In this document: positions 5,735 through 64,000 of the stretch, piece after piece
How positions within the stretch are numbered: position 1 is the first letter of the stretch
Layout: each line of letters opens with the position of its first letter
Sequence record: MF327004
Length of the DNA stretch: 64,000 bases
Direction: 5' to 3' (one strand)
Source: Shigella phage Sf17
Notes under the pieces: generated by a model
Told to the model about the DNA's origin: nothing
The model's database searches: none
Seen by the model: only the letters and a program-made list of their open reading frames with translations
Program-made: the position numbers and the translations under genes

Positions 5735-8495
<2,761 letters not shown>

Positions 8496-23319: not shown

Positions 23320-23571
23320 TCAATAAAATAAGTCTGAAGCTTTTGAATTTACAGGATTCAAAGAACCTTCGTAATGTTCTTCATAACCCTCTTGGCAGAT
23401 ATTATACAGTTCTTTGAATCGGGTTTCATCAACTGGTTTAACATCTTTCTTAGCGCATAAGAAGAGATACCAATCATACCCCAAATCCCTGCACCAAGCC
23501 TCTGAGACAAAAGCTATTGATTTGTCTTCGCTCTTGAAGATTGCTAAAGCTTCTTGCTCTTTATTGCTCAC
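23320..23571 (-). CDS. hypothetical protein
   Basis: 83-aa ORF, co-oriented. Confidence 0.4.
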   Translation of the reverse strand: MSNKEQEALAIFKSEDKSIAFVSEAWCRDLGYDWYLFLCAKKDVKPVDETRFKELYNICQEGYEEHYEGSLNPVNSKASDLFY

Positions 23572-23782
23572 GATACTCTACCTCTCTAAAAGTTTTATGG
23601 TAATAGATTTTGTAGTAAGCTATCTCGTTACTTTTAACATTTGTTTTAAGAAGAGTCCAGTCATAACCTTCACCAACTCTTCCCCAAATGCTATAAAGTT
23701 TCATTAAAGATACTCCATCCAGTTTTCTGCCAAGGTTCCCCCTTGTACCATGCAGCCATTGGGTAACCCATTTCACATACAA
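23561..23782 (-). CDS. hypothetical protein
   Basis: 73-aa ORF; overlaps ORF 23691-23897 by 92 nt, internal ATG at 23704 would reduce overlap to 14 nt. Confidence 0.35.
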   Translation of the reverse strand: MYVKWVTQWLHGTRGNLGRKLDGVSLMKLYSIWGRVGEGYDWTLLKTNVKSNEIAYYKIYYHKTFREVEYREQ

Positions 23783-23897
23783 CCTTTCCGTCTTTTATTT
23801 CAAAGAACTCATCAGATGTGAAATTTTCATTTCGAACTTTCTTGCCCTGTTTCATAGCTTCGAGAGCTTCTTCGTATGTCATTTTTGGTGTCTCCAA
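23691..23897 (-). CDS. hypothetical protein
   Basis: 68-aa ORF, co-oriented. Confidence 0.4.
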   Translation of the reverse strand: METPKMTYEEALEAMKQGKKVRNENFTSDEFFEIKDGKVVCEMGYPMAAWYKGEPWQKTGWSIFNETL

Positions 23898-42410: not shown

Positions 42411-42425
42411 ATTGGAGATAATAAA

Positions 42426-42608
42426 ATGTTGAAAATTGGCAAGGTTTACCTTTTCGTTGCAGGAAAGTCTAATCGCACACTTGAGGCTGTCCTCAAACAT
42501 GTATCTGAAAATAAATACACTGTGTCTTGGCAAGGTTCTAATGGGGTATGGTATGACGAGGACTTAACAAAAAACGTTTGGAAAGTGTATCAAGAGGTCA
42601 CAGCATGA
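42426..42608 (+). CDS. hypothetical protein
   Basis: ATG 42426 preceded by GGAGA SD (track start 42387 lies within terminator); about 60 aa. Confidence 0.4.
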   Translation: MLKIGKVYLFVAGKSNRTLEAVLKHVSENKYTVSWQGSNGVWYDEDLTKNVWKVYQEVTA

Positions 42609-48349: not shown

Positions 48350-48577
48350 GTGGAGAATGATATGAGATTTAACACGGATTTATTTTATACAGATAGCACT
48401 GGATTTTTTGGTGGATATTGTGTAGCATCTTGGCAATTATGGTTCTCAGAAGAGTACAGGGGTGATATGCAGGTTTTTGTAGAAGACTATAAGTTCCCTG
48501 CAAAACCTACTAAACGCCAGATTAGAAAGCTTCGCAGAGAGTTTCGTAAAACTTGCAAAGGGATTAACAGGCTATGA
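48350..48577 (+). CDS. hypothetical protein
   Basis: 75-aa ORF with GTG start after GGAGAATGA; basic C-terminus. Confidence 0.35.
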   Translation: MENDMRFNTDLFYTDSTGFFGGYCVASWQLWFSEEYRGDMQVFVEDYKFPAKPTKRQIRKLRREFRKTCKGINRL

Positions 48578-55914: not shown

Positions 55915-56107
55915 TTTCTGCACTAAGTGTTCTGTTGAGATGTTTGGAAAAGATACAGGAGACTTAAAAGGTCTCTTTACAAAAGCAGAGTTTGAAGCTG
56001 GTTCAGCAATGCCAGTAATCTGTGAAGGCTGTGGTGCTTTATGGGTAGACCATGAAGGTAACCGAGTTAAACCCTCTGAAGATAACGAACGTTGGGAGCA
56101 TTACTAA
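55907..56107 (+). CDS. small Cys-rich protein (zinc-ribbon-like)
   Basis: 66 aa with CTKCS ... CEGCG cysteine pairs. Confidence 0.4.
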   Translation: MADFCTKCSVEMFGKDTGDLKGLFTKAEFEAGSAMPVICEGCGALWVDHEGNRVKPSEDNERWEHY

Positions 56108-56108
56108 T

Positions 56109-56903
56109 ATGGGTATCGTAAAAATTATTAAAGGTGATATCTTTAAAGACTTTGATGGTAAGAAGTTTGATATCATTGGTCACGGTTGTAACTGCATGAA
56201 CTTGATGGGTTCAGGTATCGCAGCAACAATTGCTAAACGCTACCCAAAAGCTTATGAAACTGACGCTGAGGTTTATGCTACAGTAGGTGGTGAAAATCAT
56301 AACCCTAAGCACCTAATGCTTGGTAACATCTCTGTAGCACGTTTTAAGCAGGGTCGGATTGCTAACCTTTATACTCAGGTTATCACTGGCAAAGATGCAC
56401 GGTACAATGCTTTAGAAGCAGCTTTGCAGCGTCTGAATAATTACTGCAAAGTCAACCAACTTAAGAAAGTTGGGCTTCCTATGATTTGTGCAGGGATTGG
56501 TGGTCTTGATAGTATGGCTGTGCTGTCCATTATTAATCAGACTATGAAAGATGTTGACGTATATATGTATGTCTATGAAGATAAGATGTACAGTCAGTTG
56601 ACTAGTCCTGTTACTGGTTGGGAGAACTTCAGTGAGCCTCAATATTTTGATGGTGTTGCTGTGGTAGGCAAGGATAAAGTTACCCTCAAGGTGAAGCGTA
56701 ATGGCAAGGTACACACCAGTTACCCTCCGGTTGAGAAGTACAATCGAAGTAACGCTCAAGTTACCCACCCGTTACAAGGTCACCACCACAGAGCGGTAAC
56801 GTTTGGTGATGATGCAAGTGTGTATATCAATGCGACTACAGAAGAGTTTGCAGAAGATTATATCACACATGAAAACGTAAACTATGTTGAAGCACGTAAC
56901 TAA
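56109..56903 (+). CDS. macro-domain protein (Poa1p-like ADP-ribose-phosphate phosphatase family) with C-terminal extension
   Basis: ATG 56109; motifs KGDIFK, DIIGHGCNC, GSGIAATIAKRYP, GLPMICAGIGGLD parallel yeast Poa1p (IHSCNC ... GGGIAYQLALRYP); about 100 extra C-terminal residues. Confidence 0.5.
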   Translation: MGIVKIIKGDIFKDFDGKKFDIIGHGCNCMNLMGSGIAATIAKRYPKAYETDAEVYATVGGENHNPKHLMLGNISVARFKQGRIANLYTQVITGKDARYNALEAALQRLNNYCKVNQLKKVGLPMICAGIGGLDSMAVLSIINQTMKDVDVYMYVYEDKMYSQLTSPVTGWENFSEPQYFDGVAVVGKDKVTLKVKRNGKVHTSYPPVEKYNRSNAQVTHPLQGHHHRAVTFGDDASVYINATTEEFAEDYITHENVNYVEARN

Positions 56904-56930
56904 TAAGTTACCCAGATAAACATAGACAAG

Positions 56931-57156
56931 CCCTCCAAAGTTTGAGTTTAAAATCTCAGGTAAGGGGGGCTTTTTCATTTTAAATTTGTGCAGGTATAGT
57001 TGCATAGAACTCTGGACAGATTTCTTTAGCTGAACTCCAAAGGGAAAATTCATTTCAAATTTGTGCAGGTTTAGACTCCAAAGAGCTTTTTCATTTTCAA
57101 TCTGTGCAGATGCAGTTGGACTCCAAAGGGAAAATTCATTTTCAAATTGTGCAGGT
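56931..57156. repeat. tandem direct repeats (4 copies, about 36-bp unit at 41-45-bp period)
   Basis: CTCCAAAG-N-TTCATTT(T)CAAAT(T)TGTGCAGRT at 56931/56971-56995 (split copy), 57035-57070, 57076-57111, 57121-57156. Confidence 0.65.
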
Positions 57157-57173
57157 AGGTAGCTGTAGGAAAC

Positions 57174-57208
57174 CAGCCCCACCATCCCCTCTTACTCCCC
57201 TTCCTCCC
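57174..57208. other. C-rich polypyrimidine tract
   Basis: AGCCCCACCATCCCCTCTTACTCCCCTTCCTCCC, G-free on + strand, directly after the repeat array. Confidence 0.4.
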
Positions 57209-57250
57209 AAAAGTCAAGAGAAAAATTTGTAGAGAACTGAAAAATAATTC

Positions 57251-57279
57251 TTGACTAGATTTCTGTTTTAGTGTATTCG
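57251..57279 (+). promoter_or_regulatory. possible sigma70-type promoter (TTGACT-17-TATTCG)
   Basis: Good -35, weak -10. Confidence 0.3.
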
Positions 57280-57329
57280 CATACGTGCGTTCTATTCACG
57301 AAACATCAAAAATATTTTAAAAATTTTTG

Positions 57330-57358
57330 TTGACTTCATAAATCCAGTCTTATAGTAT
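57330..57358 (+). promoter_or_regulatory. sigma70-type promoter TTGACT-17-TAGTAT
   Basis: In AT-rich region; followed by CATCAACGGGAAACATCCC hairpin and the conserved leader CAATCCTAAACTGGAGAATCTAAAAATG. Confidence 0.5.
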
Positions 57359-57407
57359 TTGCATCAACGGGAAACATCCCAACAATCCTAAACTGGAGAA
57401 TCTAAAA

Positions 57408-57614
57408 ATGTTATATCAACGTGAGTTAATGATTGTTGACAACAACAAAACAAATAAACGTCGTTTCTATATGCTAATTTGTGATGTTTGGCAACGTATC
57501 TCAGAAAAGGATTTTGATGAATATGTTGATACGTCAATCAGGTCTGATTGTTATTTGACAACTCATACAAGACAGTTTACAAGGCATACAGCAATTTATT
57601 ATTATAACGTTTAA
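57408..57614 (+). CDS. hypothetical early protein
   Basis: 68-aa ORF behind conserved leader/SD CTGGAGAATCTAAAAATG. Confidence 0.45.
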   Translation: MLYQRELMIVDNNKTNKRRFYMLICDVWQRISEKDFDEYVDTSIRSDCYLTTHTRQFTRHTAIYYYNV

Positions 57615-57619
57615 AGTGC

Positions 57620-57648
57620 TTTACATGGGGTTTAAAAGCTAGTATATT
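57620..57648 (+). promoter_or_regulatory. early-cassette promoter TTTACA-17-TATATT
   Basis: Spacer starts TGGGG, -10 followed by AAGCCCCA (inverted repeat spanning the -10), then conserved leader. Confidence 0.5.
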
Positions 57649-57698
57649 AAGCCCCAGATAAAGAGCTTTACCAACAATCCTAAACTGGAGACTCTAAA

Positions 57699-58079
57699 AT
57701 GAAATATCGTGCGCCTAAATTTATCAACAAAGAAAACTTTCGTAGTATCTTAGAAGAAACTATGAAAGAAAACTTCAAAGGAAAAATAATTGTTGTTCAC
57801 GCTTACAATTTTAAGTATGATGTTAATGGTAACCGTATTAACCACTACAAAGCTACTATGCTTGACGGTACATTATCCGGTGAAAAAGCTATCATAAATG
57901 CTATTGCAGGACGTGGTAAAACTGTGATACGATGCGAAAAAAGACGCTATCAAGGCGGTAAATATGGGTATGAAGATGCAATGTACCATCTTGATAAAAT
58001 GGGGTATGATGTAGAGAAAGCTGGAGTATCTCAAACTATTGGTAGTGACGGCTACGTTACAGTTTTCAAAATTAACTAA
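57699..58079 (+). CDS. hypothetical early protein
   Basis: 126-aa ORF behind conserved cassette leader. Confidence 0.45.
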   Translation: MKYRAPKFINKENFRSILEETMKENFKGKIIVVHAYNFKYDVNGNRINHYKATMLDGTLSGEKAIINAIAGRGKTVIRCEKRRYQGGKYGYEDAMYHLDKMGYDVEKAGVSQTIGSDGYVTVFKIN

Positions 58080-58088
58080 ATAAAGTCC

Positions 58089-58117
58089 TTTACATGGGGT
58101 TTATAATTAGATAAGAT
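58089..58117 (+). promoter_or_regulatory. early-cassette promoter TTTACA-17-TAAGAT
   Basis: Same cassette architecture. Confidence 0.5.
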
Positions 58118-58170
58118 AAGCCCCAGATAAAGAGCTTTACCAAACAATAACCTAAACTGGAGTATCAAAA

Positions 58171-58428
58171 ATGGCTACTATCAAAAACATCATTGTATCT
58201 GCAAAATCTCGTGATGACGCTCGCGCAACTGCTAAAAAATTAAATGGTAAGGTGGTTGACAACGGAAAAGAATCTGCTGTAAGATGGGGCGTAAAATGTG
58301 ATAAGGAAATTACTTTAAAACGTAGTTCCTATGACCTTTTCAAAGGTGTAAAAGCAATCGGTAGAACTAACGTCTACACGAAGAAAGGTTATAAAATGCA
58401 CTTATCATTAACTGACAATTTAATCTGA
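58171..58428 (+). CDS. hypothetical early protein
   Basis: 85-aa ORF behind cassette leader. Confidence 0.45.
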   Translation: MATIKNIIVSAKSRDDARATAKKLNGKVVDNGKESAVRWGVKCDKEITLKRSSYDLFKGVKAIGRTNVYTKKGYKMHLSLTDNLI

Positions 58429-58436
58429 TAAAGTGC

Positions 58437-58465
58437 TTTACATGGGGTTTATAGTTAGATAAGAT
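58437..58465 (+). promoter_or_regulatory. early-cassette promoter TTTACA-17-TAAGAT
   Basis: Same cassette architecture. Confidence 0.5.
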
Positions 58466-58519
58466 AAGCCCCAGATAAAGAGCTTTACTAACCAATAGTC
58501 CTAAACTGGAGAATCTAAA

Positions 58520-59032
58520 ATGAATTTTGTTGAAGCTACCTTTGAAGTTCAAAAAGAAAAATTCACTATCATCTATGAAGCTGTTAATATTTGTGAAGCA
58601 TCCCATTGTGTGGAAAATTGGAAGTTTACCGATGAGCACAAAGGCGGGGTTACAATCAAACTTAAAAATCCAGAGCGTAACGGGTACAAATATGCAATTC
58701 CACAGCATTACAGCCTTTCACAATTGATGAGTGATTATGCTAAACAAGGCCGCGAAAATCCATCTATAGAGGCTTACAAGAGCTTACAAGATGAATTACA
58801 AAGAGATTTAGAGGCTAACAGCTACGTGCTATTTGCAAAGGTAGAAGATAAAGAAGGTAATACAGTATTAAATAGCTTTTCTCTTGCTTATGGCTTCGAT
58901 TGGTGCTATCTTGACGGGGAAGATTTAGATTCACGATTAGAAGAGGAAGTGTCGAACTCCGATGGAGAATCTGAAGTAATGGAACGTTTAGAAGCCTTGA
59001 AAGATTCTGTTATGAATATCTTTAATATCTAA
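58520..59032 (+). CDS. hypothetical early protein
   Basis: 170-aa ORF behind cassette leader. Confidence 0.45.
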   Translation: MNFVEATFEVQKEKFTIIYEAVNICEASHCVENWKFTDEHKGGVTIKLKNPERNGYKYAIPQHYSLSQLMSDYAKQGRENPSIEAYKSLQDELQRDLEANSYVLFAKVEDKEGNTVLNSFSLAYGFDWCYLDGEDLDSRLEEEVSNSDGESEVMERLEALKDSVMNIFNI

Positions 59033-59037
59033 AGTGC

Positions 59038-59066
59038 TTTACATGGGGTTATCAAGTTGATAAGAT
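59038..59066 (+). promoter_or_regulatory. early-cassette promoter TTTACA-17-TAAGAT
   Basis: Same cassette architecture. Confidence 0.5.
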
Positions 59067-59115
59067 AGCCCCAGATAAAGAGCTTTACCAACAATCCTAA
59101 ACTGGAGAATCTAAA

Positions 59116-59412
59116 ATGTTTATTGCCGCAAACGTTAGAACTAAATTAAGCCAGCTATTAAGTAATATTCAATTCATTGAATCCATGCGCCGTACTTCTG
59201 AAGCCGTAGAGTGGTATCATGGAAAGATTAACAAAAAAGAAGTAATAATTTGTGTATGGAACTTTTGCAAAGAATACAAAAAACCATTGCTTCAGGTTGA
59301 TATATATGATAACACTAATAAGTCATCGATTAAGACTACTAGAGATATGGTTGATTCATATGAAATTAGTCACACTGGTAAACTATTTCACAAAGGCGTG
59401 AACAAATGTTAA
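59116..59412 (+). CDS. hypothetical early protein
   Basis: 98-aa ORF behind cassette leader. Confidence 0.45.
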   Translation: MFIAANVRTKLSQLLSNIQFIESMRRTSEAVEWYHGKINKKEVIICVWNFCKEYKKPLLQVDIYDNTNKSSIKTTRDMVDSYEISHTGKLFHKGVNKC

Positions 59413-59780
59413 TCACATACACTGCAATTTTTATCTCTATTGTGGCGCTCTATAAAGCCTTGCAAGCGCACAGTATAGCTAATAAGGCACTTACAAGGGA
59501 TTTAAAAATAAATCTTGTACGGGGCTTTTTAGAGCGTTTGAGCTTAGAACAATTGAAACGTTTAGAGATGAGCTTTCGATTCAAAGCAGAAACATACCGG
59601 ATTGATAACATCCTAGATGGTGATTTTAAATTAATCAGTGATTATGACATACTTCTTGAGTCAATTCAAGATATAAACCTGAAAGATTATTATATCGTGA
59701 TAGCGCAAGAAATTAATAAAAAAGAGCTTGCAATGCGGGGCAAGATAGAAGCCCCAACAATCCTAAACTGGAGAATCTGA
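59406..59780 (+). CDS. hypothetical early protein
   Basis: 124-aa ORF with hydrophobic N-terminus; its 3' end encodes a leader-only cassette copy (59748-59782). Confidence 0.4.
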   Translation: MLITYTAIFISIVALYKALQAHSIANKALTRDLKINLVRGFLERLSLEQLKRLEMSFRFKAETYRIDNILDGDFKLISDYDILLESIQDINLKDYYIVIAQEINKKELAMRGKIEAPTILNWRI

Positions 59781-59782
59781 AA

Positions 59783-60055
59783 ATGTATACTACTAATGAC
59801 GGTCGAACTTTGAACGTAACTTTAAAACACTATATAGACGGTGTATTAAACTTTGAAGAGTTAAGAGCAGAACAGCACCTATTAGATTGGCAAGTAGCAG
59901 GTTTACAAAAACCCGCCACAGGATATGGAAAGAAAATTCCTACATCTTGGAAAGTTCGATACCTTGGAAAGTTACGCAGAATTTATCAAGATGTTTATAG
60001 TAATAGCGGTGTAAGTTACATTATTGTTAGCGGTAAAAAATTGTATTTAGTCTAA
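59783..60055 (+). CDS. hypothetical early protein
   Basis: 90-aa ORF behind leader-only cassette copy. Confidence 0.45.
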   Translation: MYTTNDGRTLNVTLKHYIDGVLNFEELRAEQHLLDWQVAGLQKPATGYGKKIPTSWKVRYLGKLRRIYQDVYSNSGVSYIIVSGKKLYLV

Positions 60056-60063
60056 TAAATTGC

Positions 60064-60092
60064 TTTACATGGGGTTATCAAGTTGATAAGAT
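60064..60092 (+). promoter_or_regulatory. early-cassette promoter TTTACA-17-TAAGAT
   Basis: Same cassette architecture, leader variant AACCTAAACTGGAGACTAGAAAATG. Confidence 0.5.
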
Positions 60093-60144
60093 AGCCCCAG
60101 ATAAAGAGATTTATCTAAAACTAACCTAAACTGGAGACTAGAAA

Positions 60145-60552
60145 ATGACTAATGTTAATCACAAAGAAGTTGCAATTTTGAAAGCACGTTTGACCATTAA
60201 CCGCATCAACATTGTAACATCAGCAGCACCAGACGAAACACTACATAATATCATCGGTAAAATTCAGGGCGCAGTAGTAGACACAAAACAGCTTAAAGAA
60301 TCCTTGCAAGATGTAGCAGCAGGAGCTATAATTGACGGTGCTCAGTATGAGATGAAAGAAATGCTGTCAAAGTCAAAAGTAATGAATAAAGAACTTGACT
60401 TGAAAATGTTTAGATTTGCTGTTAAAGTGTGGCTATGTGTTGATTTTGATGCAAACTTTGCAATTGCTGATTTCTTTGCAACATGGTTACAGCGTAACTT
60501 ACCGGTTGAAGTTTTCCGTGAAATCTGCGATGCAATTTATTCAGAGATTTGA
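60145..60552 (+). CDS. hypothetical early protein
   Basis: 135-aa ORF behind cassette leader. Confidence 0.45.
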   Translation: MTNVNHKEVAILKARLTINRINIVTSAAPDETLHNIIGKIQGAVVDTKQLKESLQDVAAGAIIDGAQYEMKEMLSKSKVMNKELDLKMFRFAVKVWLCVDFDANFAIADFFATWLQRNLPVEVFREICDAIYSEI

Positions 60553-60581
60553 TTGACATTGCAAAAGCATAGTAGTAGAGT
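60553..60581 (+). promoter_or_regulatory. sigma70-type promoter TTGACA-17-TAGAGT
   Basis: Begins immediately after preceding stop; followed by ACTCATCAACGGGGCAAG motif. Confidence 0.5.
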
Positions 60582-60658
60582 ACTCATCAACGGGGCAAGC
60601 TGATACATGCCGACTCTTAACACAACTTGATAACCTTGGCAAGCCGTTTTTATATCAT

Positions 60659-60826
60659 ATGCCAGATAACACTGCAAAAACTTACAGTTACATTGTAAAC
60701 CGTTTTACGGCTTATGGTTCAAAGTATGGCTATAATGTCAAGACTCAAAAAGTGACTTTGTTCACAAGTATTGAAGAGTTACCAACTGTTGCCGTTAAAC
60801 TAATCTTTACAAAGAAAACTAAATAA
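60659..60826 (+). CDS. possible small ORF
   Basis: 55-codon ATG ORF downstream of promoter 60553-60581, no clear SD; below ORF-track cutoff. Confidence 0.25.
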   Translation: MPDNTAKTYSYIVNRFTAYGSKYGYNVKTQKVTLFTSIEELPTVAVKLIFTKKTK

Positions 60827-60831
60827 AGTGC

Positions 60832-60860
60832 TTTACATGGGGTTTATAGTTAGATAAGAT
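60832..60860 (+). promoter_or_regulatory. early-cassette promoter TTTACA-17-TAAGAT
   Basis: Same cassette architecture. Confidence 0.5.
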
Positions 60861-60910
60861 AAGCCCCAGATAAAGAGCTTTACCAACAATCCTAAACTGG
60901 AGAATCTAAA

Positions 60911-61468
60911 ATGAAATGCTTTCATGGTACTACACAAGAAAACTTTGTAAACCTTATCAATGGCGGTGATAAACCATCAGGAGCTTGGAATTGCTCTGAT
61001 ATGGATGGATGTTTTTACGTCTACCCTGTTAACAAGTTCTATGATGTAGAGAATCTGGATGACGAACAAATCACAGATGAAGGTATTAGAAACGCGCTTG
61101 ATAGCGCAAGCATTACAGCAGCCTATCAAATGAAGTCACAAAAGCTTGTTATCTTGGAACTGGATATTCCAGAAGATGATTTACAAGATGACTGGAGCTG
61201 TGAGAACATGAGCGACGTAGCAAGCTTTACAGAATATTTCGATAAAGAATGGATTAAAAAGGTTTACACAACTGAATTTAATGCTATGTATGCACCTTTC
61301 TTTGTCCCTAACCTAAACAATAGAAATTTAGGATATGTACCAGACGAACTACGCAACATTGCAGAAATAGTCCAACGTAGTGATGGGATGAGTAATGTAT
61401 ATTGTGATATCTTTGACACCATGCAATGCAACGTAACAGAAACGGTTATAAACGACTTAACAGCATAA
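60911..61468 (+). CDS. hypothetical early protein
   Basis: 185-aa ORF behind cassette leader. Confidence 0.45.
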   Translation: MKCFHGTTQENFVNLINGGDKPSGAWNCSDMDGCFYVYPVNKFYDVENLDDEQITDEGIRNALDSASITAAYQMKSQKLVILELDIPEDDLQDDWSCENMSDVASFTEYFDKEWIKKVYTTEFNAMYAPFFVPNLNNRNLGYVPDELRNIAEIVQRSDGMSNVYCDIFDTMQCNVTETVINDLTA

Positions 61469-61531
61469 ACCATAGAATCACACCAGTTCACTAGAAAAGC
61501 CCCGCACAGGGGCTTACAAGAGGCTTAAAAG

Positions 61532-61762
61532 ATGCTTACAACAATCTATCTTATCTTATCTATCTGCAATGGTTCACAATGTGACTTTAAAGGTTTAGAA
61601 GAGTTTACAGGTAGCGAAAATAATGCTATTGTTGCTTGTCAGATAGCAAGGCAAGACTACCCTACATCAGATGATATCCAATGTTACTATAAATCAGAAG
61701 ATGAATACGGGATTTATTTTGATAGTGTGAATGGTGATTATGAAATTCTTATAGAAAAGTAG
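61532..61762 (+). CDS. hypothetical early protein
   Basis: 76-aa ORF with AAGAGG SD, preceded by hairpin AAGCCCC-gcaca-GGGGCTT. Confidence 0.4.
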   Translation: MLTTIYLILSICNGSQCDFKGLEEFTGSENNAIVACQIARQDYPTSDDIQCYYKSEDEYGIYFDSVNGDYEILIEK

Positions 61763-61791
61763 TTGACACTGAAAACGCAAACCAGTAGAGT
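61763..61791 (+). promoter_or_regulatory. sigma70-type promoter TTGACA-17-TAGAGT
   Basis: Begins right after preceding stop; followed by ACTCATCAACGGGGCAAG and cassette leader. Confidence 0.5.
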
Positions 61792-61847
61792 ACTCATCAA
61801 CGGGGCAAGTTAGAAGCCCCAACAATCCTAAACTGGAGATTCAAAAA

Positions 61848-62069
61848 ATGTTGCAAGTTCTTAACGTAAAAACCATTGATTTTAAATTCTCAAATGTTCG
61901 TCGTACCTATTTACAACCGTTTAATAACCCTGTTAGAATTCCCAATGATGACGCTAAAAAGTTGATTGATGAAATTCTAGCTAATGGCGGTTATCTGGCT
62001 AGTCATAAGCAGTATAATGATGAGGCTGGAAGCCTGATAAATGAGTTTACATATTATTACTACAAATAA
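61848..62069 (+). CDS. hypothetical early protein
   Basis: 73-aa ORF behind cassette leader. Confidence 0.45.
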   Translation: MLQVLNVKTIDFKFSNVRRTYLQPFNNPVRIPNDDAKKLIDEILANGGYLASHKQYNDEAGSLINEFTYYYYK

Positions 62070-62081
62070 CTAATAAAGTGC

Positions 62082-62110
62082 TTTACATGGGGTAAACTGG
62101 AGAATCTAAA
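62082..62110 (+). other. truncated early cassette (-35 and GGGG joined directly to SD)
   Basis: AAAGTGCTTTACATGGGGTAAACTGGAGAATCTAAAATG: the -10, CCCC arm and leader body are missing. Confidence 0.5.
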
Positions 62111-62308
62111 ATGTTATCACTGATGCAAAAACTTTCTACCTTGTGGTGTTTAAAAGGTGTAGAGTGTAACCTTAACATGGAAGGTTCAAAGATAGACCTA
62201 AAAATAGTATACAATGGAGAAATACTATTCTCACAGAATAGCAGTCATCCACACTTCAAAGATAATGCAATTATGGCCGTGAATAATCTGATGGATAGAA
62301 TTTATTAA
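62111..62308 (+). CDS. hypothetical early protein
   Basis: 65-aa ORF behind truncated cassette. Confidence 0.4.
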   Translation: MLSLMQKLSTLWCLKGVECNLNMEGSKIDLKIVYNGEILFSQNSSHPHFKDNAIMAVNNLMDRIY

Positions 62309-62313
62309 AGTGC

Positions 62314-62342
62314 TTTACATGGGGTTTAAAAGCTAGTATCTT
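62314..62342 (+). promoter_or_regulatory. early-cassette promoter TTTACA-17-TATCTT
   Basis: Same cassette architecture, weaker -10. Confidence 0.45.
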
Positions 62343-62393
62343 AAGCCCCAAAGAAAGAGCTTTACCAACAATCCTAAACTGGAGAATCTGAAA

Positions 62394-62735
62394 ATGGCCT
62401 ATGTAACAATTATCACCGATAAAGAAAATTCGTCATGGTCTACCCAAGTTAACGACAAAATGAAACCTATGCAGTGTCTCAAGTACTTTGAGCAATGGAA
62501 CAGGGGAGAAGATGTAAGCCCGTTTCAAGTGATGCAGATTGTACATGTTGACAATGAAGGGAATAAAACTACCCTTAACACTGAATACTATGCTACACGT
62601 TTCGAAACTCGCAAATCAGCTATGCAGGAGTTAAGAGAAAAGGGATATAGTCACATTGCCGCGCTCATTTGGTCTGATTTGCTTAAAAAACAGTCATTAA
62701 CCTATGTTAAGCCAGAAAAAATCTTTATAAGCTAA
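62394..62735 (+). CDS. hypothetical early protein
   Basis: 113-aa ORF behind cassette leader. Confidence 0.45.
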   Translation: MAYVTIITDKENSSWSTQVNDKMKPMQCLKYFEQWNRGEDVSPFQVMQIVHVDNEGNKTTLNTEYYATRFETRKSAMQELREKGYSHIAALIWSDLLKKQSLTYVKPEKIFIS

Positions 62736-62862
62736 TCAACAACTTATAAAAATCTTTTGAAAAACTATTGACAATGCCCCTTGACAAGTGTAACTTTGTT
62801 CGAGGGGGTTTATCTAAAAGGGATTAACTTAATAGATTCTTTATAGATAAGCGTAAAAAGTA

Positions 62863-62891
62863 CTTGCAAAGGTCTAATCATATCTATATAG
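62863..62891 (+). promoter_or_regulatory. sigma70-type promoter TTGCAA-17-TATAGT
   Basis: Upstream of leader TTCCTAAACTGGAGAATCACTAAATG. Confidence 0.45.
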
Positions 62892-62931
62892 TATCTTCAA
62901 AAGGCAACTTCCTAAACTGGAGAATCACTAA

Positions 62932-63063
62932 ATGTTAGATATCATTAAAAACCCTATCCTTTGCGGTATGATTGTTTCTGTTGTGTTGCCATTAGCAATG
63001 CTCATCATTGGTGAAATCTCAGATAAACTTTTTGATAAAAAACTAGGGAGACTTCCCCACTAA
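62932..63063 (+). CDS. small hydrophobic peptide
   Basis: 43-codon ORF MLDIIKNPILCGMIVSVVLPLAMLIIG... behind cassette leader; its last codons are the GGGAGACTTCCCCACTAA element. Confidence 0.35.
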   Translation: MLDIIKNPILCGMIVSVVLPLAMLIIGEISDKLFDKKLGRLPH

Positions 63064-63092
63064 AACAAAATTCCTAAACTGGAGAATCTAGA

Positions 63093-63620
63093 ATGAATAA
63101 GTTTAATGCTGTTAATGCAATCCGTAGCCGTGAAGTGATGAGCAAGCCTTGTAAAGATACTTGGGAATTTACCTTAAAGAGCAAAGTTTTTGCAGTTATC
63201 ACAAAAGGGGAAGATAAGAAGTTTTATGTACACCGACCAAATGTAAAAGCGGTAACAGCCAACAACTTTATGGGGGCTATTTCTCTTATTCTGAATGATT
63301 ATATGGCTATAGTCGCAGAAATTCACGAAATGGCTATTAAGGCAACTAAAAACGAGTTAAACCGCTTTAAAATGGCTTATGAGCGCTCTATTAAGTCCCA
63401 TAATCTTTTTATTGCAATCCACTATACAGGCATGTATGCTATGGGAACGGGTAACCAACAATACCCACTCTATGAAGTGGAAAACATCTTTACAAGTGAC
63501 TACCCAACAACTAATTTTAAAATTACGTTAGGGGAAGCATTAAGTAGGGGAATTAGGCTTTACGAACAATCTTTAAAAAACTTAGAAAATTCCCTTGACG
63601 AAATCATCACAAATCTATAA
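63093..63620 (+). CDS. hypothetical early protein
   Basis: 175-aa ORF behind cassette leader. Confidence 0.45.
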   Translation: MNKFNAVNAIRSREVMSKPCKDTWEFTLKSKVFAVITKGEDKKFYVHRPNVKAVTANNFMGAISLILNDYMAIVAEIHEMAIKATKNELNRFKMAYERSIKSHNLFIAIHYTGMYAMGTGNQQYPLYEVENIFTSDYPTTNFKITLGEALSRGIRLYEQSLKNLENSLDEIITNL

Positions 63621-63623
63621 AGT
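63595..63623 (+). promoter_or_regulatory. sigma70-type promoter TTGACG-17-TAAAGT inside 3' end of ORF 63093-63620
   Basis: Followed by ACTTATCAACGGGGAGGGAGACTTCCCC hairpin and leader. Confidence 0.45.
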
Positions 63624-63685
63624 ACTTATCAACGGGGAGGGAGACTTCCCCACTAAAACAAAATTCCTAAACTGGAGAATCTAGA

Positions 63686-63949
63686 ATGAATAATCAAGAA
63701 ATCACTATCCTGTTACAAATCGGTACTGACAAAGAAGATATCCAACTTTGCAAACGTATTGAAAGTGATTGGTTCAACGGTGAAATCATCGCAGAATCTT
63801 ATGAAGTAGTTGGATTTATGAATGGTGCAATTGTAAGCCATTTCGGTTTAACTAAATCTGAAGCCGTTGCAAAGTATGACGTTTTATCTTGTGAGATTCT
63901 TACAAAATACAATGAAAAAAGACTTGCAACTTATGCAGCAATGAATTAA
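63686..63949 (+). CDS. hypothetical early protein
   Basis: 87-aa ORF behind cassette leader. Confidence 0.45.
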   Translation: MNNQEITILLQIGTDKEDIQLCKRIESDWFNGEIIAESYEVVGFMNGAIVSHFGLTKSEAVAKYDVLSCEILTKYNEKRLATYAAMN

Positions 63950-63952
63950 TAT
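63924..63952 (+). promoter_or_regulatory. sigma70-type promoter TTGCAA-17-TAATAT inside 3' end of ORF 63686-63949
   Basis: Followed by TTTCAACGGGGAGGGAGACTTCCCC hairpin and start of another leader at window edge. Confidence 0.45.
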
Positions 63953-64000
63953 TACTTTCAACGGGGAGGGAGACTTCCCCACTAACCTAAATTCCTAAAC

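What the first reader, a model, noticed from the sequence alone, without database searches (positions are those of the whole stretch)
59748..63063. Cassette decay and reuse: truncated copy, leader-only copies, and leaders that double as coding sequence
At 62082-62110 the -35/GGGG part is fused directly to the SD (TTTACATGGGG-TAAACTGGAG), deleting the -10 and leader body. At 59748-59782 and 62895-62931 only the leader is present. The GGGAGACTTCCCCACTAA element supplies the last codons and stop of ORF 62932-63063 and recurs intergenically at 63630 and 63965; promoters at 63595 and 63924 lie inside the 3' ends of ORFs. This pattern suggests recombination at cassette sequences.
Basis: seen in the sequence. 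Interest (0 to 1): 0.5.

Follow-up and report, generated by a model that had tools for sequence, protein, structure and literature searches.

The report
Decaying promoter cassettes in a phage

Summary
From about 57330 to the window end, nearly every small + strand ORF is preceded by one of three cassette types that share a 26-bp leader (CCAACAATCCTAAACTGGAGAATCTA). The closest relative, Shigella phage Sf19, is 98.6-98.8% identical across the array and has every cassette intact.

The anomalies are window-specific deletions, each with 0-1 nt of junction homology:
- 30 bp at 59735/6
- 60 bp at 60599/600
- 50 bp at 62092/3
- 45 bp at 63044/5

Each has one end within 4 nt of the G4 run of the cassette hairpin. 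Two of them fuse an ORF to leader sequence, which gives it a new C-terminus. One decapitates a gene, leaving the remnant 60600-60826. The "leader-only" copy at 62895 is not decayed: it has its own conserved promoter at 62864-62892.

Recombination at cassettes is well supported in 14 relatives:
- Gene indels are bounded by cassettes.
- Cassette type switches at orthologous positions.
- Separated promoter copies evolve in concert.
- A 56-bp leader conversion exists inside the window.

This matches PeSL-mediated modular shuffling of T4-like phages, here in Ounavirinae. I found it described there only as unexplained repeats. Interest is moderate: a new member of a known kind.

The parts
57330..64000 (+). 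Array of small early ORFs, each preceded by a promoter/hairpin/leader cassette. It continues past the window end.
   Evidence: gene map.
57330..57406 (+). First cassette, class B: TTGACT-17-TAGTAT, ATCAAC, hairpin GGGAAACATCCC, shared leader.
57612..57698 (+). Intact class A cassette (TTTACA-17-TATATT inside a long hairpin, then leader). Its 5' edge is also the junction of a 174-bp gene indel (52-aa ORF F25, TAAA microhomology), present in Sf19 and absent here and in KPS64.
58081..58170 (+). Intact class A cassette.
58429..58519 (+). Intact class A cassette.
59030..59115 (+). Intact class A cassette (stem variant GGGGTTATC/GATAGCCCC).
59727..59782 (+). Promoter-deleted cassette: -35 remnant CTTGCA (59727-59732), 30-bp deletion junction at 59735|59736, hairpin GGGGCAAGATAGAAGCCCC (59737-59755), leader. 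ORF 59406-59780 now reads through it to a TGA stop 2 nt before the next ATG.
60056..60144 (+). Intact class A cassette (outer-helix variant TAAATT/GATTTA).
60553..60599 (+). Class B promoter (TTGACA-17-TAGAGT), ATCAAC and the 5' half of the hairpin, ending at the 60-bp deletion junction 60599|60600.
60600..60826 (+). 5'-truncated remnant of an 82-aa gene (F10). It lacks SD, ATG and 7 codons. The longest remaining ORF is 60659-60826 (55 aa) with no SD.
60824..60910 (+). Intact class A cassette (reference copy; RNA fold -25.6 kcal/mol, z -4.65).
61763..61847 (+). Intact class B cassette with hairpin GGGGCAAGTTAGAAGCCCC. Sf19/Sf13/Sf18 carry GGGAAACATCCC here and Mordin/Michonne carry GGGGAGGGAAACTTCCCC.
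62074..62110 (+). Truncated class A cassette: the -35 and G4 are joined to the SD. 50-bp deletion junction at 62092|62093. No stable fold remains.
62306..62393 (+). Intact class A cassette. Together with gene 62111-62308 it forms a 282-bp unit that is absent from KPS64.
62777..62808 (+). Terminator-like hairpin CCCCTTGACAAG...CTTTGTTCGAGGGG followed by GTTTATCT. It is the only such candidate I found on the + strand of the array.
   Evidence: the consensus scan found none on the + strand.
62864..62931 (+). Hairpin-less promoter (TTGCAA-17-TATAGT, 62864-62892) plus shared leader.
63045..63092 (+). Remnant of a class C cassette after a 45-bp deletion (junction 63044|63045): partial hairpin GGGAGACTTCCCC plus leader. 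It supplies the last codons and stop of ORF 62932-63063.
63595..63685 (+). Class C cassette. The promoter lies in the last codons of ORF 63093-63620, with the stop TAA inside the -10 TAAAGT. Its hairpin and leader (63638-63693) are a 56-bp exact copy of 63045-63100, unlike the sequence at this position in all relatives that could be compared.
63924..64000 (+). Class C cassette, cut by the window end. The promoter TTGCAA-17-TAATAT lies in the last codons of ORF 63686-63949.

Best explanation
**What the region is.** The region is the hyperplastic early-gene array of a Mooglevirus (Ounavirinae, Felix O1-like) phage. Each small ORF carries a composite regulatory cassette.

**Cassette types**
- Class A: a sigma-70-type promoter (TTTACA-17-TAAGAT) buried in a roughly 59-nt hairpin that starts at the upstream stop codon.
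- Classes B and C: a promoter placed just after, or inside, the last codons of the upstream ORF. It is followed by ATCAAC and a short G3-4...C3-4 hairpin, which would sit at the 5' end of the transcript.
- All classes end in the same SD-containing leader.

**Shown from sequence and comparison**
- The four anomalies are recent 30-60-bp deletions, essentially without junction homology. They removed three promoters and one gene start.
- Two of them forced the upstream ORF to terminate in leader sequence.
- Across relatives, the shared parts of the cassettes (leader, -35, ATCAACGGGG) are where genes are gained, lost and moved. Cassette copies also convert one another there.

**Inferred**
- The promoters are early host-RNA-polymerase promoters.
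- The hairpins act in RNA, as a 3'-end barrier or processing site for class A and as a 5'-end stabiliser for classes B and C.
- The G-rich hairpins are fragile sites that seed the short deletions.
- After each deletion the downstream gene is expressed by read-through from the next promoter upstream.
For: **Identity of the phage.** Sf19 is 99.5% identical over window 30-55 kb and 98.6-98.8% identical over the array.

**The deletions are derived**
- All cassettes are intact in Sf19 and in 12-20 other records per junction.
- Junction homology is 0-1 nt.
- Five of five independent microdeletions (four here, one in Sf18) have an end within 4 nt of a G4 run. The chance of this is about 5e-5 for random placement, and about 2e-4 if deletions are constrained to overlap non-coding DNA.
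- The array holds 5 deletions of 30 bp or more in 7.6 kb. The rest of the genome holds 3 indels in 49.6 kb.

**Promoters.** The consensus scan finds every class A and B promoter, plus those at 62864 and 63595.

**Hairpins**
- Class A folds at -23 to -26 kcal/mol, z -3.1 to -4.65.
- In 45 distinct copies, inner-stem positions 6-8 are paired in 45, 45 and 44 of 45 copies through TA/AT/CG swaps. The next two positions pair in only 7 and 9 of 45.
- Outer position 5 switches between GC and TA.
- Two positions are mostly T-G. These pair only on the sense strand.
- Classes B and C carry many different hairpin sequences, more than eight as I read, at one fixed position.

**Shuffling among relatives**
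- Gene map.
- A 282-bp gene-plus-cassette unit that leaves one hybrid cassette.
- The F41 insertion bounded by ATCAACGGGG and the leader.
- F16 lost by a leader-leader junction in Moogle and HP1, and by a junction at the -35 CTTGCAA in Felix O1.
- Cassette type switching at orthologous sites.
- Concerted evolution of two promoter copies 3.4 kb apart.
- The 56-bp conversion in the window.
Against: - No transcript, promoter-activity or RNA-end data exist for any of these elements.
- Class A hairpins lack a U-tract, and the scan found no + strand terminator. The terminator role claimed for PeSLs is therefore not supported by sequence here.
- The G4-run association was noticed after the fact, and its threshold was chosen post hoc.
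- Three of the four junctions are seen in no other public record. They rest on a single assembly.
- All four deletion lengths are multiples of five. This is probably coincidence, but I could not check it against reads.
- Cassette copies are paralogues, so covariation counts are not independent events.
- Small-ORF indels also occur elsewhere in the genome without cassettes. Cassettes are therefore not required for gene gain or loss.
Confidence: 0.75

Rival explanations
1. The truncated and promoter-less copies were produced by homologous or unequal recombination between different cassettes.
For: Cassettes share 26-45 bp of identity. Exchange between cassettes clearly happens elsewhere in the array, and a 56-bp conversion exists in the window itself.
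Against: Each anomaly is a simple internal loss of 30-60 bp relative to an otherwise collinear relative that is 98.6-98.8% identical. The flanking genes are unchanged. Junctions share only 0-1 nt. Exchange between two cassettes would remove or duplicate the gene between them.
Confidence: 0.08
2. The deletions are sequencing or assembly artefacts at hairpin-forming DNA, not features of the phage.
For: All four lie at strong hairpins. Three are found in no other record. All four lengths are multiples of five.
Against: - The 50-bp deletion recurs base-for-base (111/111) in an independent GenBank record, vB_SflM_004.
- The deletions are asymmetric with respect to the hairpins, unlike palindrome collapse.
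- Sf18 carries a different deletion in the same cassette as the 30-bp one, and vB_SflM_004 appears to have a different deletion in the 45-bp one. Such events therefore recur in independent assemblies.
Confidence: 0.07
3. The deletions were fixed by selection for lower or re-timed expression of particular early genes on this phage's host (promoter pruning), not because hairpins are mutational hot spots.
For: - Three of the four deletions remove a promoter while keeping the SD and start codon of the downstream gene.
- Both copies of one promoter type (CTTGCAATGCAGAATCAAAACAAGTAAAGT) were lost independently in this genome. The same module was also hit in Sf18 and apparently in vB_SflM_004.
- Sf13, at similar divergence from Sf19, has no such deletion.
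Against: Selection does not explain why one endpoint always abuts the G4 run. One deletion destroys a gene start rather than a promoter. This rival is compatible with the main explanation rather than exclusive of it.
Confidence: 0.3
4. The shared leader and hairpins are binding sites for a phage- or host-encoded protein that regulates translation or transcription, as proposed for SAS/ESAS. Their repetition reflects regulation only, and rearrangements at them are incidental.
For: - The leader is conserved well beyond the SD (CCTAAACTGGAGAATCT; 13 copies against 0.08 expected).
- The Mordin authors likened it to start-associated sequences (PMC4611695).
- ATCAAC is essentially invariant in front of the class B and C hairpins.
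Against: - Hairpin sequences differ widely while pairing is kept, and class A shows compensatory changes. This argues for structure rather than a sequence-specific site.
- Concerted evolution and cassette switching show that the repeats are actively exchanged.
- A regulatory role and a role as recombination substrate are not exclusive.
Confidence: 0.2

Closest known systems
PeSLs (promoter-early stem-loops) of T4-like phages (Arbiol, Comeau & Krisch 2010, PMC2839356; Comeau et al. 2014, PMC4122927)
   Same: - A composite intergenic cassette: upstream stop codon, sigma-70-like promoter, a stem-loop with poly-G then poly-C placed between, over or after the promoter boxes, then the SD and ATG.
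- Concentrated in a region of small ORFs of unknown function.
- Insertions, deletions and replacements between close relatives are bounded by the cassettes.
- That paper also recalls T4 deletions associated with GGGC/GCCC motifs, which resembles the G4-anchored deletions seen here.
   Different: - A different phage subfamily (Ounavirinae) and unrelated sequences.
- All classes share one long leader.
- One class puts the promoter inside the last codons of the upstream ORF, with the stop codon inside the -10.
- The hairpins have no U-tract, so a terminator role is not evident.
- Mini-circles and promoter or terminator activity have not been tested here.
Start-associated sequences (SAS) and extended SAS of Cluster K mycobacteriophages (Pope et al. 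2011, PMC3203893)
   Same: - A conserved asymmetric repeat that contains the SD core.
- It lies a few bases upstream of ATG starts, in one orientation, only in the non-structural half of the genome.
- It is associated with genes of different families and is often preceded by an inverted repeat.
- The Mordin genome announcement (PMC4611695) made this comparison for the 26-bp leader.
   Different: - Different consensus (GGGATAGGAGCCC) and different host and phage group.
- ESAS inverted repeats do not covary and were proposed to be DNA-binding sites. The hairpins here do covary and include sense-strand-only G-T pairs.
- SAS have not been linked to promoters or to gene shuffling.
Direct repeats listed in the Felix O1 genome paper (Whichard et al. 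2010, PMC3185647)
   Same: The 57-bp repeat CTTTACATGGGGCTTAAAAGTCTGTAAAGTAAGCCCCAGATAAAGAGCTTTACCACT is a class A cassette. The 39-bp repeat TTGACACTGGTTTTTAGATAGATTAAATTACACATCAAC is a class B/C promoter ending in ATCAAC. Both were confirmed in the Felix O1 sequence.
   Different: They were reported only as direct repeats, without promoter, hairpin, leader or recombination interpretation. That paper states that how transcription is organised in Felix O1 is unknown.
Morons of lambdoid phages (as contrasted with PeSLs in PMC2839356)
   Same: Single small genes that bring their own expression signals into a phage genome.
   Different: Morons are not flanked by a conserved repeat shared with their neighbours, and they are thought to insert by illegitimate recombination. 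Here the conserved flanks are themselves the exchange sites.

Membership tests
PeSL regulatory cassettes | A sigma-70-like early promoter (-35 and -10 boxes) in the intergenic space | tested here: met
   The consensus scan finds TTTACA-17-TAAGAT or close variants at all 7 intact class A copies, TTGACA-17-TAGAGT at 60553 and 61763, TTGACT-17-TAGTAT at 57330, TTGCAA-17-TATAGT at 62864 and TTGACG-17-TAAAGT at 63595. This is sequence only; activity was not measured.
PeSL regulatory cassettes | A stable stem-loop, usually poly-G...poly-C, between, overlapping or just downstream of the promoter boxes | tested here: met
   In class A the GGGG...CCCC stem spans the spacer and the -10 (-23 to -26 kcal/mol, z to -4.65), with compensatory changes. 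In classes B and C a G3-4...C3-4 hairpin begins 10 nt after the -10.
PeSL regulatory cassettes | The upstream gene's stop codon at the 5' end and the SD plus start codon at the 3' end of the motif | tested here: met
   Class A begins TAAAGTG, with TAA as the stop of the upstream ORF in most copies. All classes end in CTGGAG-N7-9-ATG.
PeSL regulatory cassettes | Concentrated in hyperplastic regions rich in small non-essential ORFs of unknown function | tested here: met
   All 13 leader copies lie at 57387-63678 and none lies elsewhere in the 64 kb. The ORFs are 43-185 aa with no credible Pfam domain; one sub-threshold hit only. Gene content varies among relatives. Non-essentiality is inferred from presence/absence only.
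PeSL regulatory cassettes | Insertions, deletions and replacements between close relatives are bounded by the motifs | tested here: met
   All indels of 10 bp or more in Sf19 versus Sf18, KPS64, Henu11 and the window end in cassettes or in the last 30 nt of an ORF, apart from one replaced gene. Hybrid cassettes are left behind.
PeSL regulatory cassettes | The stem-loop acts as a transcription terminator or attenuator | tested here: inconclusive
   No U-tract follows the class A stem (CCCCAGATAAAG), and the scan reports no + strand terminator in the array. Attenuation or RNA processing cannot be judged from sequence.
PeSL regulatory cassettes | Recombination between neighbouring motifs yields excised mini-circles detectable by inverse PCR | not testable with these tools
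   This requires infected-cell or virion DNA.
PeSL regulatory cassettes | Described in T4-like myoviruses | tested here: not met
   The window is a Mooglevirus (Ounavirinae) by nucleotide identity to Sf19, Sf18 and Sf13. PeSLs are defined by architecture rather than homology, so this limits the name more than the mechanism.
SAS/ESAS of Cluster K mycobacteriophages | A 13-bp consensus GGGATAGGAGCCC | tested here: not met
   The leader consensus here is CCAACAATCCTAAACTGGAGAATCTA. Only the GGAG core is shared.
SAS/ESAS of Cluster K mycobacteriophages | Located a few bases upstream of start codons, in one orientation, restricted to the non-structural part of the genome, and in front of unrelated gene families | tested here: met
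   There are 7-9 nt between GGAG and ATG. All copies are on the + strand and all lie in the early array, in front of at least 13 different ORF families.
SAS/ESAS of Cluster K mycobacteriophages | An upstream 17-bp imperfect inverted repeat whose departures do not support RNA pairing (proposed DNA-binding site) | tested here: not met
   The inverted repeats here keep their pairing through compensatory changes and use G-T pairs that work only on the sense strand.
Rfam RNA families | A match to any curated covariance model | tested here: not met
   Only two chance-level miRNA hits (E 0.29 and 0.62) in 56500-64000.

The most novel reading that the evidence does not exclude
The G4...C4 hairpins would not be passive homology patches. 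They would be the recognition or cleavage sites of an active, structure-directed process, such as a phage or host nuclease or a replication-fork event specific to these hairpins. That process would both seed the short deletions and target the insertion and excision of hairpin-leader-ORF-promoter units. The Ounavirinae early region would then be an integron-like gene-cassette system without a recognisable integrase. A corollary is that the promoter module ending ...CTTGCAATGCAGAATCAAAACAAGTAA travels as a portable 3' gene end. It would supply a tail (LAMQNQNK in the Sf-group phages) and a stop codon to whatever ORF it lands behind.
Probability: 0.1. Interest if true: 0.8.

Novelty: new member of a known kind. 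Interest (0 to 1): 0.45.

Why it matters
- **Reach of the PeSL idea.** It would extend promoter/hairpin cassettes as linkers for modular gene shuffling from T4-like phages to an unrelated group of therapeutic and typing phages: Felix O1 and the Shigella and Citrobacter Moogleviruses.
- **Earlier unexplained features.** It explains two features noted without interpretation in earlier genome papers: the Felix O1 "direct repeats" and the Mordin "SAS-like" repeat.
- **Transcription map.** It gives a testable transcription map for a subfamily whose Felix O1 genome paper (PMC3185647, 2010) stated that transcriptional organisation and timing were unknown. I found no later transcript map in the searched library.
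- **Practical use.**
  - The cassettes mark where accessory early genes, likely host-takeover or anti-defence genes, can be swapped or inserted safely.
  - They also mark where engineered phages may be genetically unstable.
- **Deletion hot spots.** The G-run-anchored deletions offer a natural system for studying hairpin-associated deletion in a lytic phage.

Tried and rejected
- **Rfam:** the search of 56500-64000 found nothing meaningful.
- **Pfam:** a scan of ten array ORFs found no domains. The one sub-threshold Transposase_1 hit (E 0.0095, 16 bits against a 24-bit cut-off) was dismissed.
- **IMG/VR:** scans for the four deletion junctions found none. The control scan shows that the collection holds only about seven Mooglevirus contigs, so this negative result is weak.
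- **vB_SflM_004 and the 45-bp deletion:** I first read as showing that vB_SflM_004 shares this deletion. The alignment shows that it has a different lesion, so the claim was dropped. The record is also locally scrambled, with two 50-bp blocks swapped, so I treat it only as independent confirmation of the 50-bp junction.
- **Gene remnant at 60600:** I first thought it contained a premature stop. Translation in the correct frame shows an intact frame that lacks only its start.
- **Class A alignment:** the MAFFT alignment of class A copies (A1) puts a gap in the 3' arm and is out of structural register. I therefore counted pairs with a script anchored on the G and C runs instead of using count of structure pairs.
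- **Leader mini-hairpin:** a 3-4-bp hairpin in the leader, UCC(U)...(A)GGA, with coupled T and A insertions in Felix O1-type leaders, was seen in 188 and 9 copies with no single-insertion forms. The two forms look like a single lineage split, so I do not count it as covariation evidence.
- **Cassette-mediated loss of the 174-bp ORF at 57612:** rejected. The junction is a 4-nt TAAA repeat at two stop codons.

Full report
**What the window is.** Window 59400-64000 matches Citrobacter and Shigella phages of the genus Mooglevirus (Ounavirinae, Felix O1-like). It does so only in 3-9 pieces per genome, and no record covers 80% of it. Window 30001-55000, by contrast, is 99.5% identical to Shigella phage Sf19 in essentially one block. 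The finding therefore lies in a hyperplastic part of an otherwise conserved genome.

**The array and its cassettes.** From about 57330 to the window end, every small + strand ORF but two (59406-59780 and 61532-61762, which have no cassette of their own) is preceded by a repeated unit.
- The leader core CCTAAACTGGAGA occurs 13 times, all on the + strand between 57387 and 63678, against 0.08 expected by chance. TTTACATGGGG occurs 8 times against 0.85 expected.
- Class A has seven intact copies plus one truncated copy. It reads TAAAGTGC-TTTACA-TGGGG...TAAGAT...CCCC-AGATAAAGAGCTTTACC-AACAATCCTAAACTGGAGAATCTAAA-ATG.
- Classes B and C read -35 (TTGACA, CTTGCA or CTTGAC), 17 nt, -10 (TAGAGT, TAAAGT or TAATAT), four bases, ATCAAC, a short G3-4...C3-4 hairpin, and then the same leader.
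- In class B the -35 follows the upstream stop codon directly. In class C the promoter occupies the last eight or nine codons of the upstream ORF, and the TAA stop forms the first three bases of the -10.
- A simple consensus scan recovers these promoters. It also recovers TTGCAA-17-TATAGT at 62864-62892.
- Rfam has no family for any of this, and the ORFs have no credible Pfam domains.

**The hairpins are real structures.**
- Class A folds as RNA into an extended hairpin of about 21 bp that begins at the upstream stop codon. The fold is -23 to -26 kcal/mol, with z from -3.1 to -4.65. The truncated copy does not fold.
- I collected 45 distinct class A copies from the window and 13 relatives. Stem positions 6, 7 and 8 are paired in 45, 45 and 44 of 45 copies through TA/AT/CG exchanges. 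The two positions beyond the stem pair in only 7 and 9 of 45.
- An outer-helix position alternates between G-C and T-A.
- Two positions are predominantly T-G. These pair only on the sense strand, which points to RNA or sense-strand DNA rather than a symmetrical cruciform.
- Classes B and C carry many different hairpin sequences at one fixed position between the invariant ATCAAC and the leader: more than eight as I read.
[quoted passage not shown] By general knowledge of RNase E-dependent decay, a hairpin there stabilises mRNA.
- These functional roles are inference. No transcript data exist.

**The anomalies are recent short deletions.** Aligned to Sf19, the array (window 56056-63700) shows 94 mismatches and five deletions in the window:
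- 174 bp at 57612
- 30 bp at 59735/6
- 60 bp at 60599/600
- 50 bp at 62092/3
- 45 bp at 63044/5

Junction-spanning searches of 50,697 phage records gave the following results.
- The 30-, 60- and 45-bp deletions occur in no other record. Every relative that covers a junction carries the longer, intact form.
- The 50-bp deletion recurs exactly (111/111) only in vB_SflM_004. It lies there inside a 200-bp patch that is 100% identical to the window, within an otherwise roughly 75% identical and locally scrambled record.
- IMG/VR holds none of the four junctions, but it holds few Moogleviruses.

**Consequences of each deletion.**
- **30 bp.** This removed the spacer, the -10 and the stop codon of a 115-aa ORF. 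The ORF now reads through hairpin and leader to a TGA stop 2 nt before the next ATG. Its tail changed from LAMQNQNK* to LAMRGKIEAPTILNWRI*.
- **45 bp.** This removed the same type of promoter from a 46-aa membrane-protein ORF, which now ends GRLPH* in the hairpin remnant.
- **50 bp.** This removed the -10, most of the hairpin and the leader body of a class A cassette, but kept the SD and ATG.
- **60 bp.** This removed half a hairpin, the leader, the SD, the ATG and seven codons of an 82-aa gene. It left the promoter at 60553 driving a startless remnant.

I infer that the three downstream genes that kept their SD are now expressed by read-through from the next promoter upstream.

**How the deletions arose.**
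- The junctions share only 0-1 nt, so they are not exchanges between cassettes.
- Each deletion has one end 0-4 nt from the G4 run that opens the hairpin. So does an independent 51-bp deletion in the same cassette in Sf18.
- Random placement of five deletions of these lengths reproduces this about 5e-5 of the time. Constraining them to overlap non-coding DNA raises that to about 2e-4. The threshold was chosen after seeing the data.
- The two copies of one promoter module were hit four times in four genomes: the window twice, Sf18, and apparently vB_SflM_004.
- Sf13, at similar divergence from Sf19, has no indel of 10 bp or more in the array.
- I therefore favour hairpin-associated fragility, possibly combined with selection to prune promoters. 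I cannot separate the two.
- The PeSL paper recalls T4 deletions associated with GGGC/GCCC motifs (PMC2839356), which is a similar pattern.

**The "leader-only" copy at 62895.** This is not a remnant. A terminator-like hairpin sits at 62777-62808. It is followed by the promoter at 62864-62892 and then the leader. The whole unit is conserved in every relative that carries the downstream gene.

**Recombination at cassettes is nonetheless clear.** A gene-family map of 12 genomes shows a fixed backbone with optional genes between cassettes.
- The 65-aa gene at 62111-62308 plus one class A cassette is a 282-bp unit absent from KPS64, which has one hybrid cassette in its place.
- Mordin and Michonne have an extra gene inserted between ATCAACGGGG and the leader of the cassette at 61763.
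- Moogle and pEC-M719 lack the 82-aa gene, and its class B promoter now drives the next gene.
- The 46-aa gene is absent from Moogle and HP1 with a leader-to-leader junction. It is absent from Felix O1 with a junction at the -35 hexamer CTTGCAA.
- The cassette type in front of the same gene changes between close relatives. This is seen for the genes starting at 58520, 59783, 60145, 60911, 61848 and 62394.
- The two promoter copies that end the 115-aa and 46-aa ORFs lie 3.4 kb apart. They share lineage-specific variants: ATGCAG in the Sf group, ATAAAG in the Mordin group and AAGGCA in Silverhawkium. This indicates gene conversion.
- In the window itself, the hairpin and leader before ORF 63686 are a 56-bp exact copy of those before ORF 63093. 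All ten relatives that could be compared carry a different sequence there.
- Outside the array, 49.6 kb of the window differs from Sf19 by only three indels. All three are small-ORF insertions without cassettes.

**Comparison with what is known.**
- The architecture and behaviour match the PeSLs of T4-like phages. Those combine a sigma-70 promoter with a G...C stem-loop between stop codon and SD, lie in hyperplastic regions, and mediate modular shuffling (PMC2839356, PMC4122927).
- Differences: the phage group, the single shared leader, the class with the promoter inside the ORF end, and the absence of a U-tract. Activity and mini-circles have not been tested.
- In Ounavirinae I found only fragments of this picture. 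The Felix O1 paper lists the class A unit and the class B/C promoter as unexplained direct repeats and says transcription control is unknown (PMC3185647). I confirmed both in its sequence. The Mordin announcement calls the 26-bp leader "reminiscent of" start-associated sequences (PMC4611695; SAS defined in PMC3203893).
- Full-text searches for PeSL, Mooglevirus, Felixounavirus promoters and the motif strings found nothing further. The library lacks most subscription-journal papers.

**Verdict.** The feature is a PeSL-like cassette system in a new phage subfamily, caught in one lineage that has recently lost three promoters and one gene start by short hairpin-anchored deletions. Interest is moderate.

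Noticed in passing
window 23571-23866, 42415-42604, 48380-48571: These are three short insertions relative to Sf19 in the otherwise 98-99% identical core genome. Two carry a small ORF: ATG 42426 to stop 42608 (about 60 aa) and ATG 48362 to stop 48577 (about 71 aa). They are wedged between conserved genes with no class A, B or C cassette. Small-gene gain or loss therefore also happens without cassettes.
   Followed up: partly
L011 (vB_SflM_004, MK295205.1) 5890-7060, against window 61930-63020: This Felixounavirus-like record is a mosaic. Patches 100% identical to the window (61983-62183 and about 62880-63016) lie in roughly 75% identical sequence, and two adjacent 50-bp blocks are in swapped order. 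It is either a recent recombinant or a chimeric assembly. I treat the record with caution.
   Followed up: partly
window 62777-62808: A 12-bp hairpin CCCCTTGACAAG...CTTTGTTCGAGGGG followed by GTTTATCT (-15.9 kcal/mol, z -2.7). It is the only terminator-like element I found on the + strand of the array. It contains two TTGACA motifs, and the flanking 62790-62860 stretch is unusually conserved even in distant relatives.
   Followed up: partly
all leaders, e.g. window 63070-63085; L015 (Felix O1) 6860-6895, 7425-7459, 8020-8057: The leader can form a mini-hairpin, UCC-UAAACU-GGA, that occludes part of the SD. Felix O1-type leaders read (T/C)CCTTAAACTAGGAG, with a T and an A inserted together, which extends the stem by one U-A pair. 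Counts are 188 copies of the short form, 9 of the long form and none with a single insertion. This is possibly one lineage split, so the evidence is weak.
   Followed up: partly
L015 (Felix O1, NC_005282) locus 5984: The annotated start of Felix O1 ORF19 is the ATG inside the loop of a class C hairpin (CAACGGGGAGGGAATGACC...), not an ATG after the leader. The same cassette in front of the homologous gene (F8 probe) runs on to a normal leader ...TCCTTAAACTAGGAGACTCGAAA, so the annotated start is probably wrong.
   Followed up: no
L004 (KPS64) 7159-7471: A 127-128-bp tandem duplication covers the 3' end of the 46-aa ORF plus its class C cassette, with the junction just after the leader (GGAGAATC|TTTGGTGAAATC). 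It is another rearrangement at the same cassette that suffered the 45-bp deletion in the window.
   Followed up: partly
L002 (Michonne) 47-734; L003 (Sf18) 6573-6821: Michonne carries two tandem copies of the 85-aa gene (the homologue of window 58171-58428), each with a cassette. In Sf18 the 82-aa gene is replaced by an unrelated ORF of the same length between the same two cassettes.
   Followed up: no
window 59735, 60599, 62092, 63044: The four microdeletions are 30, 60, 50 and 45 bp long, all multiples of five. This is probably coincidence, since one is reproduced in an independent record, but I could not check it against raw reads.
   Followed up: no
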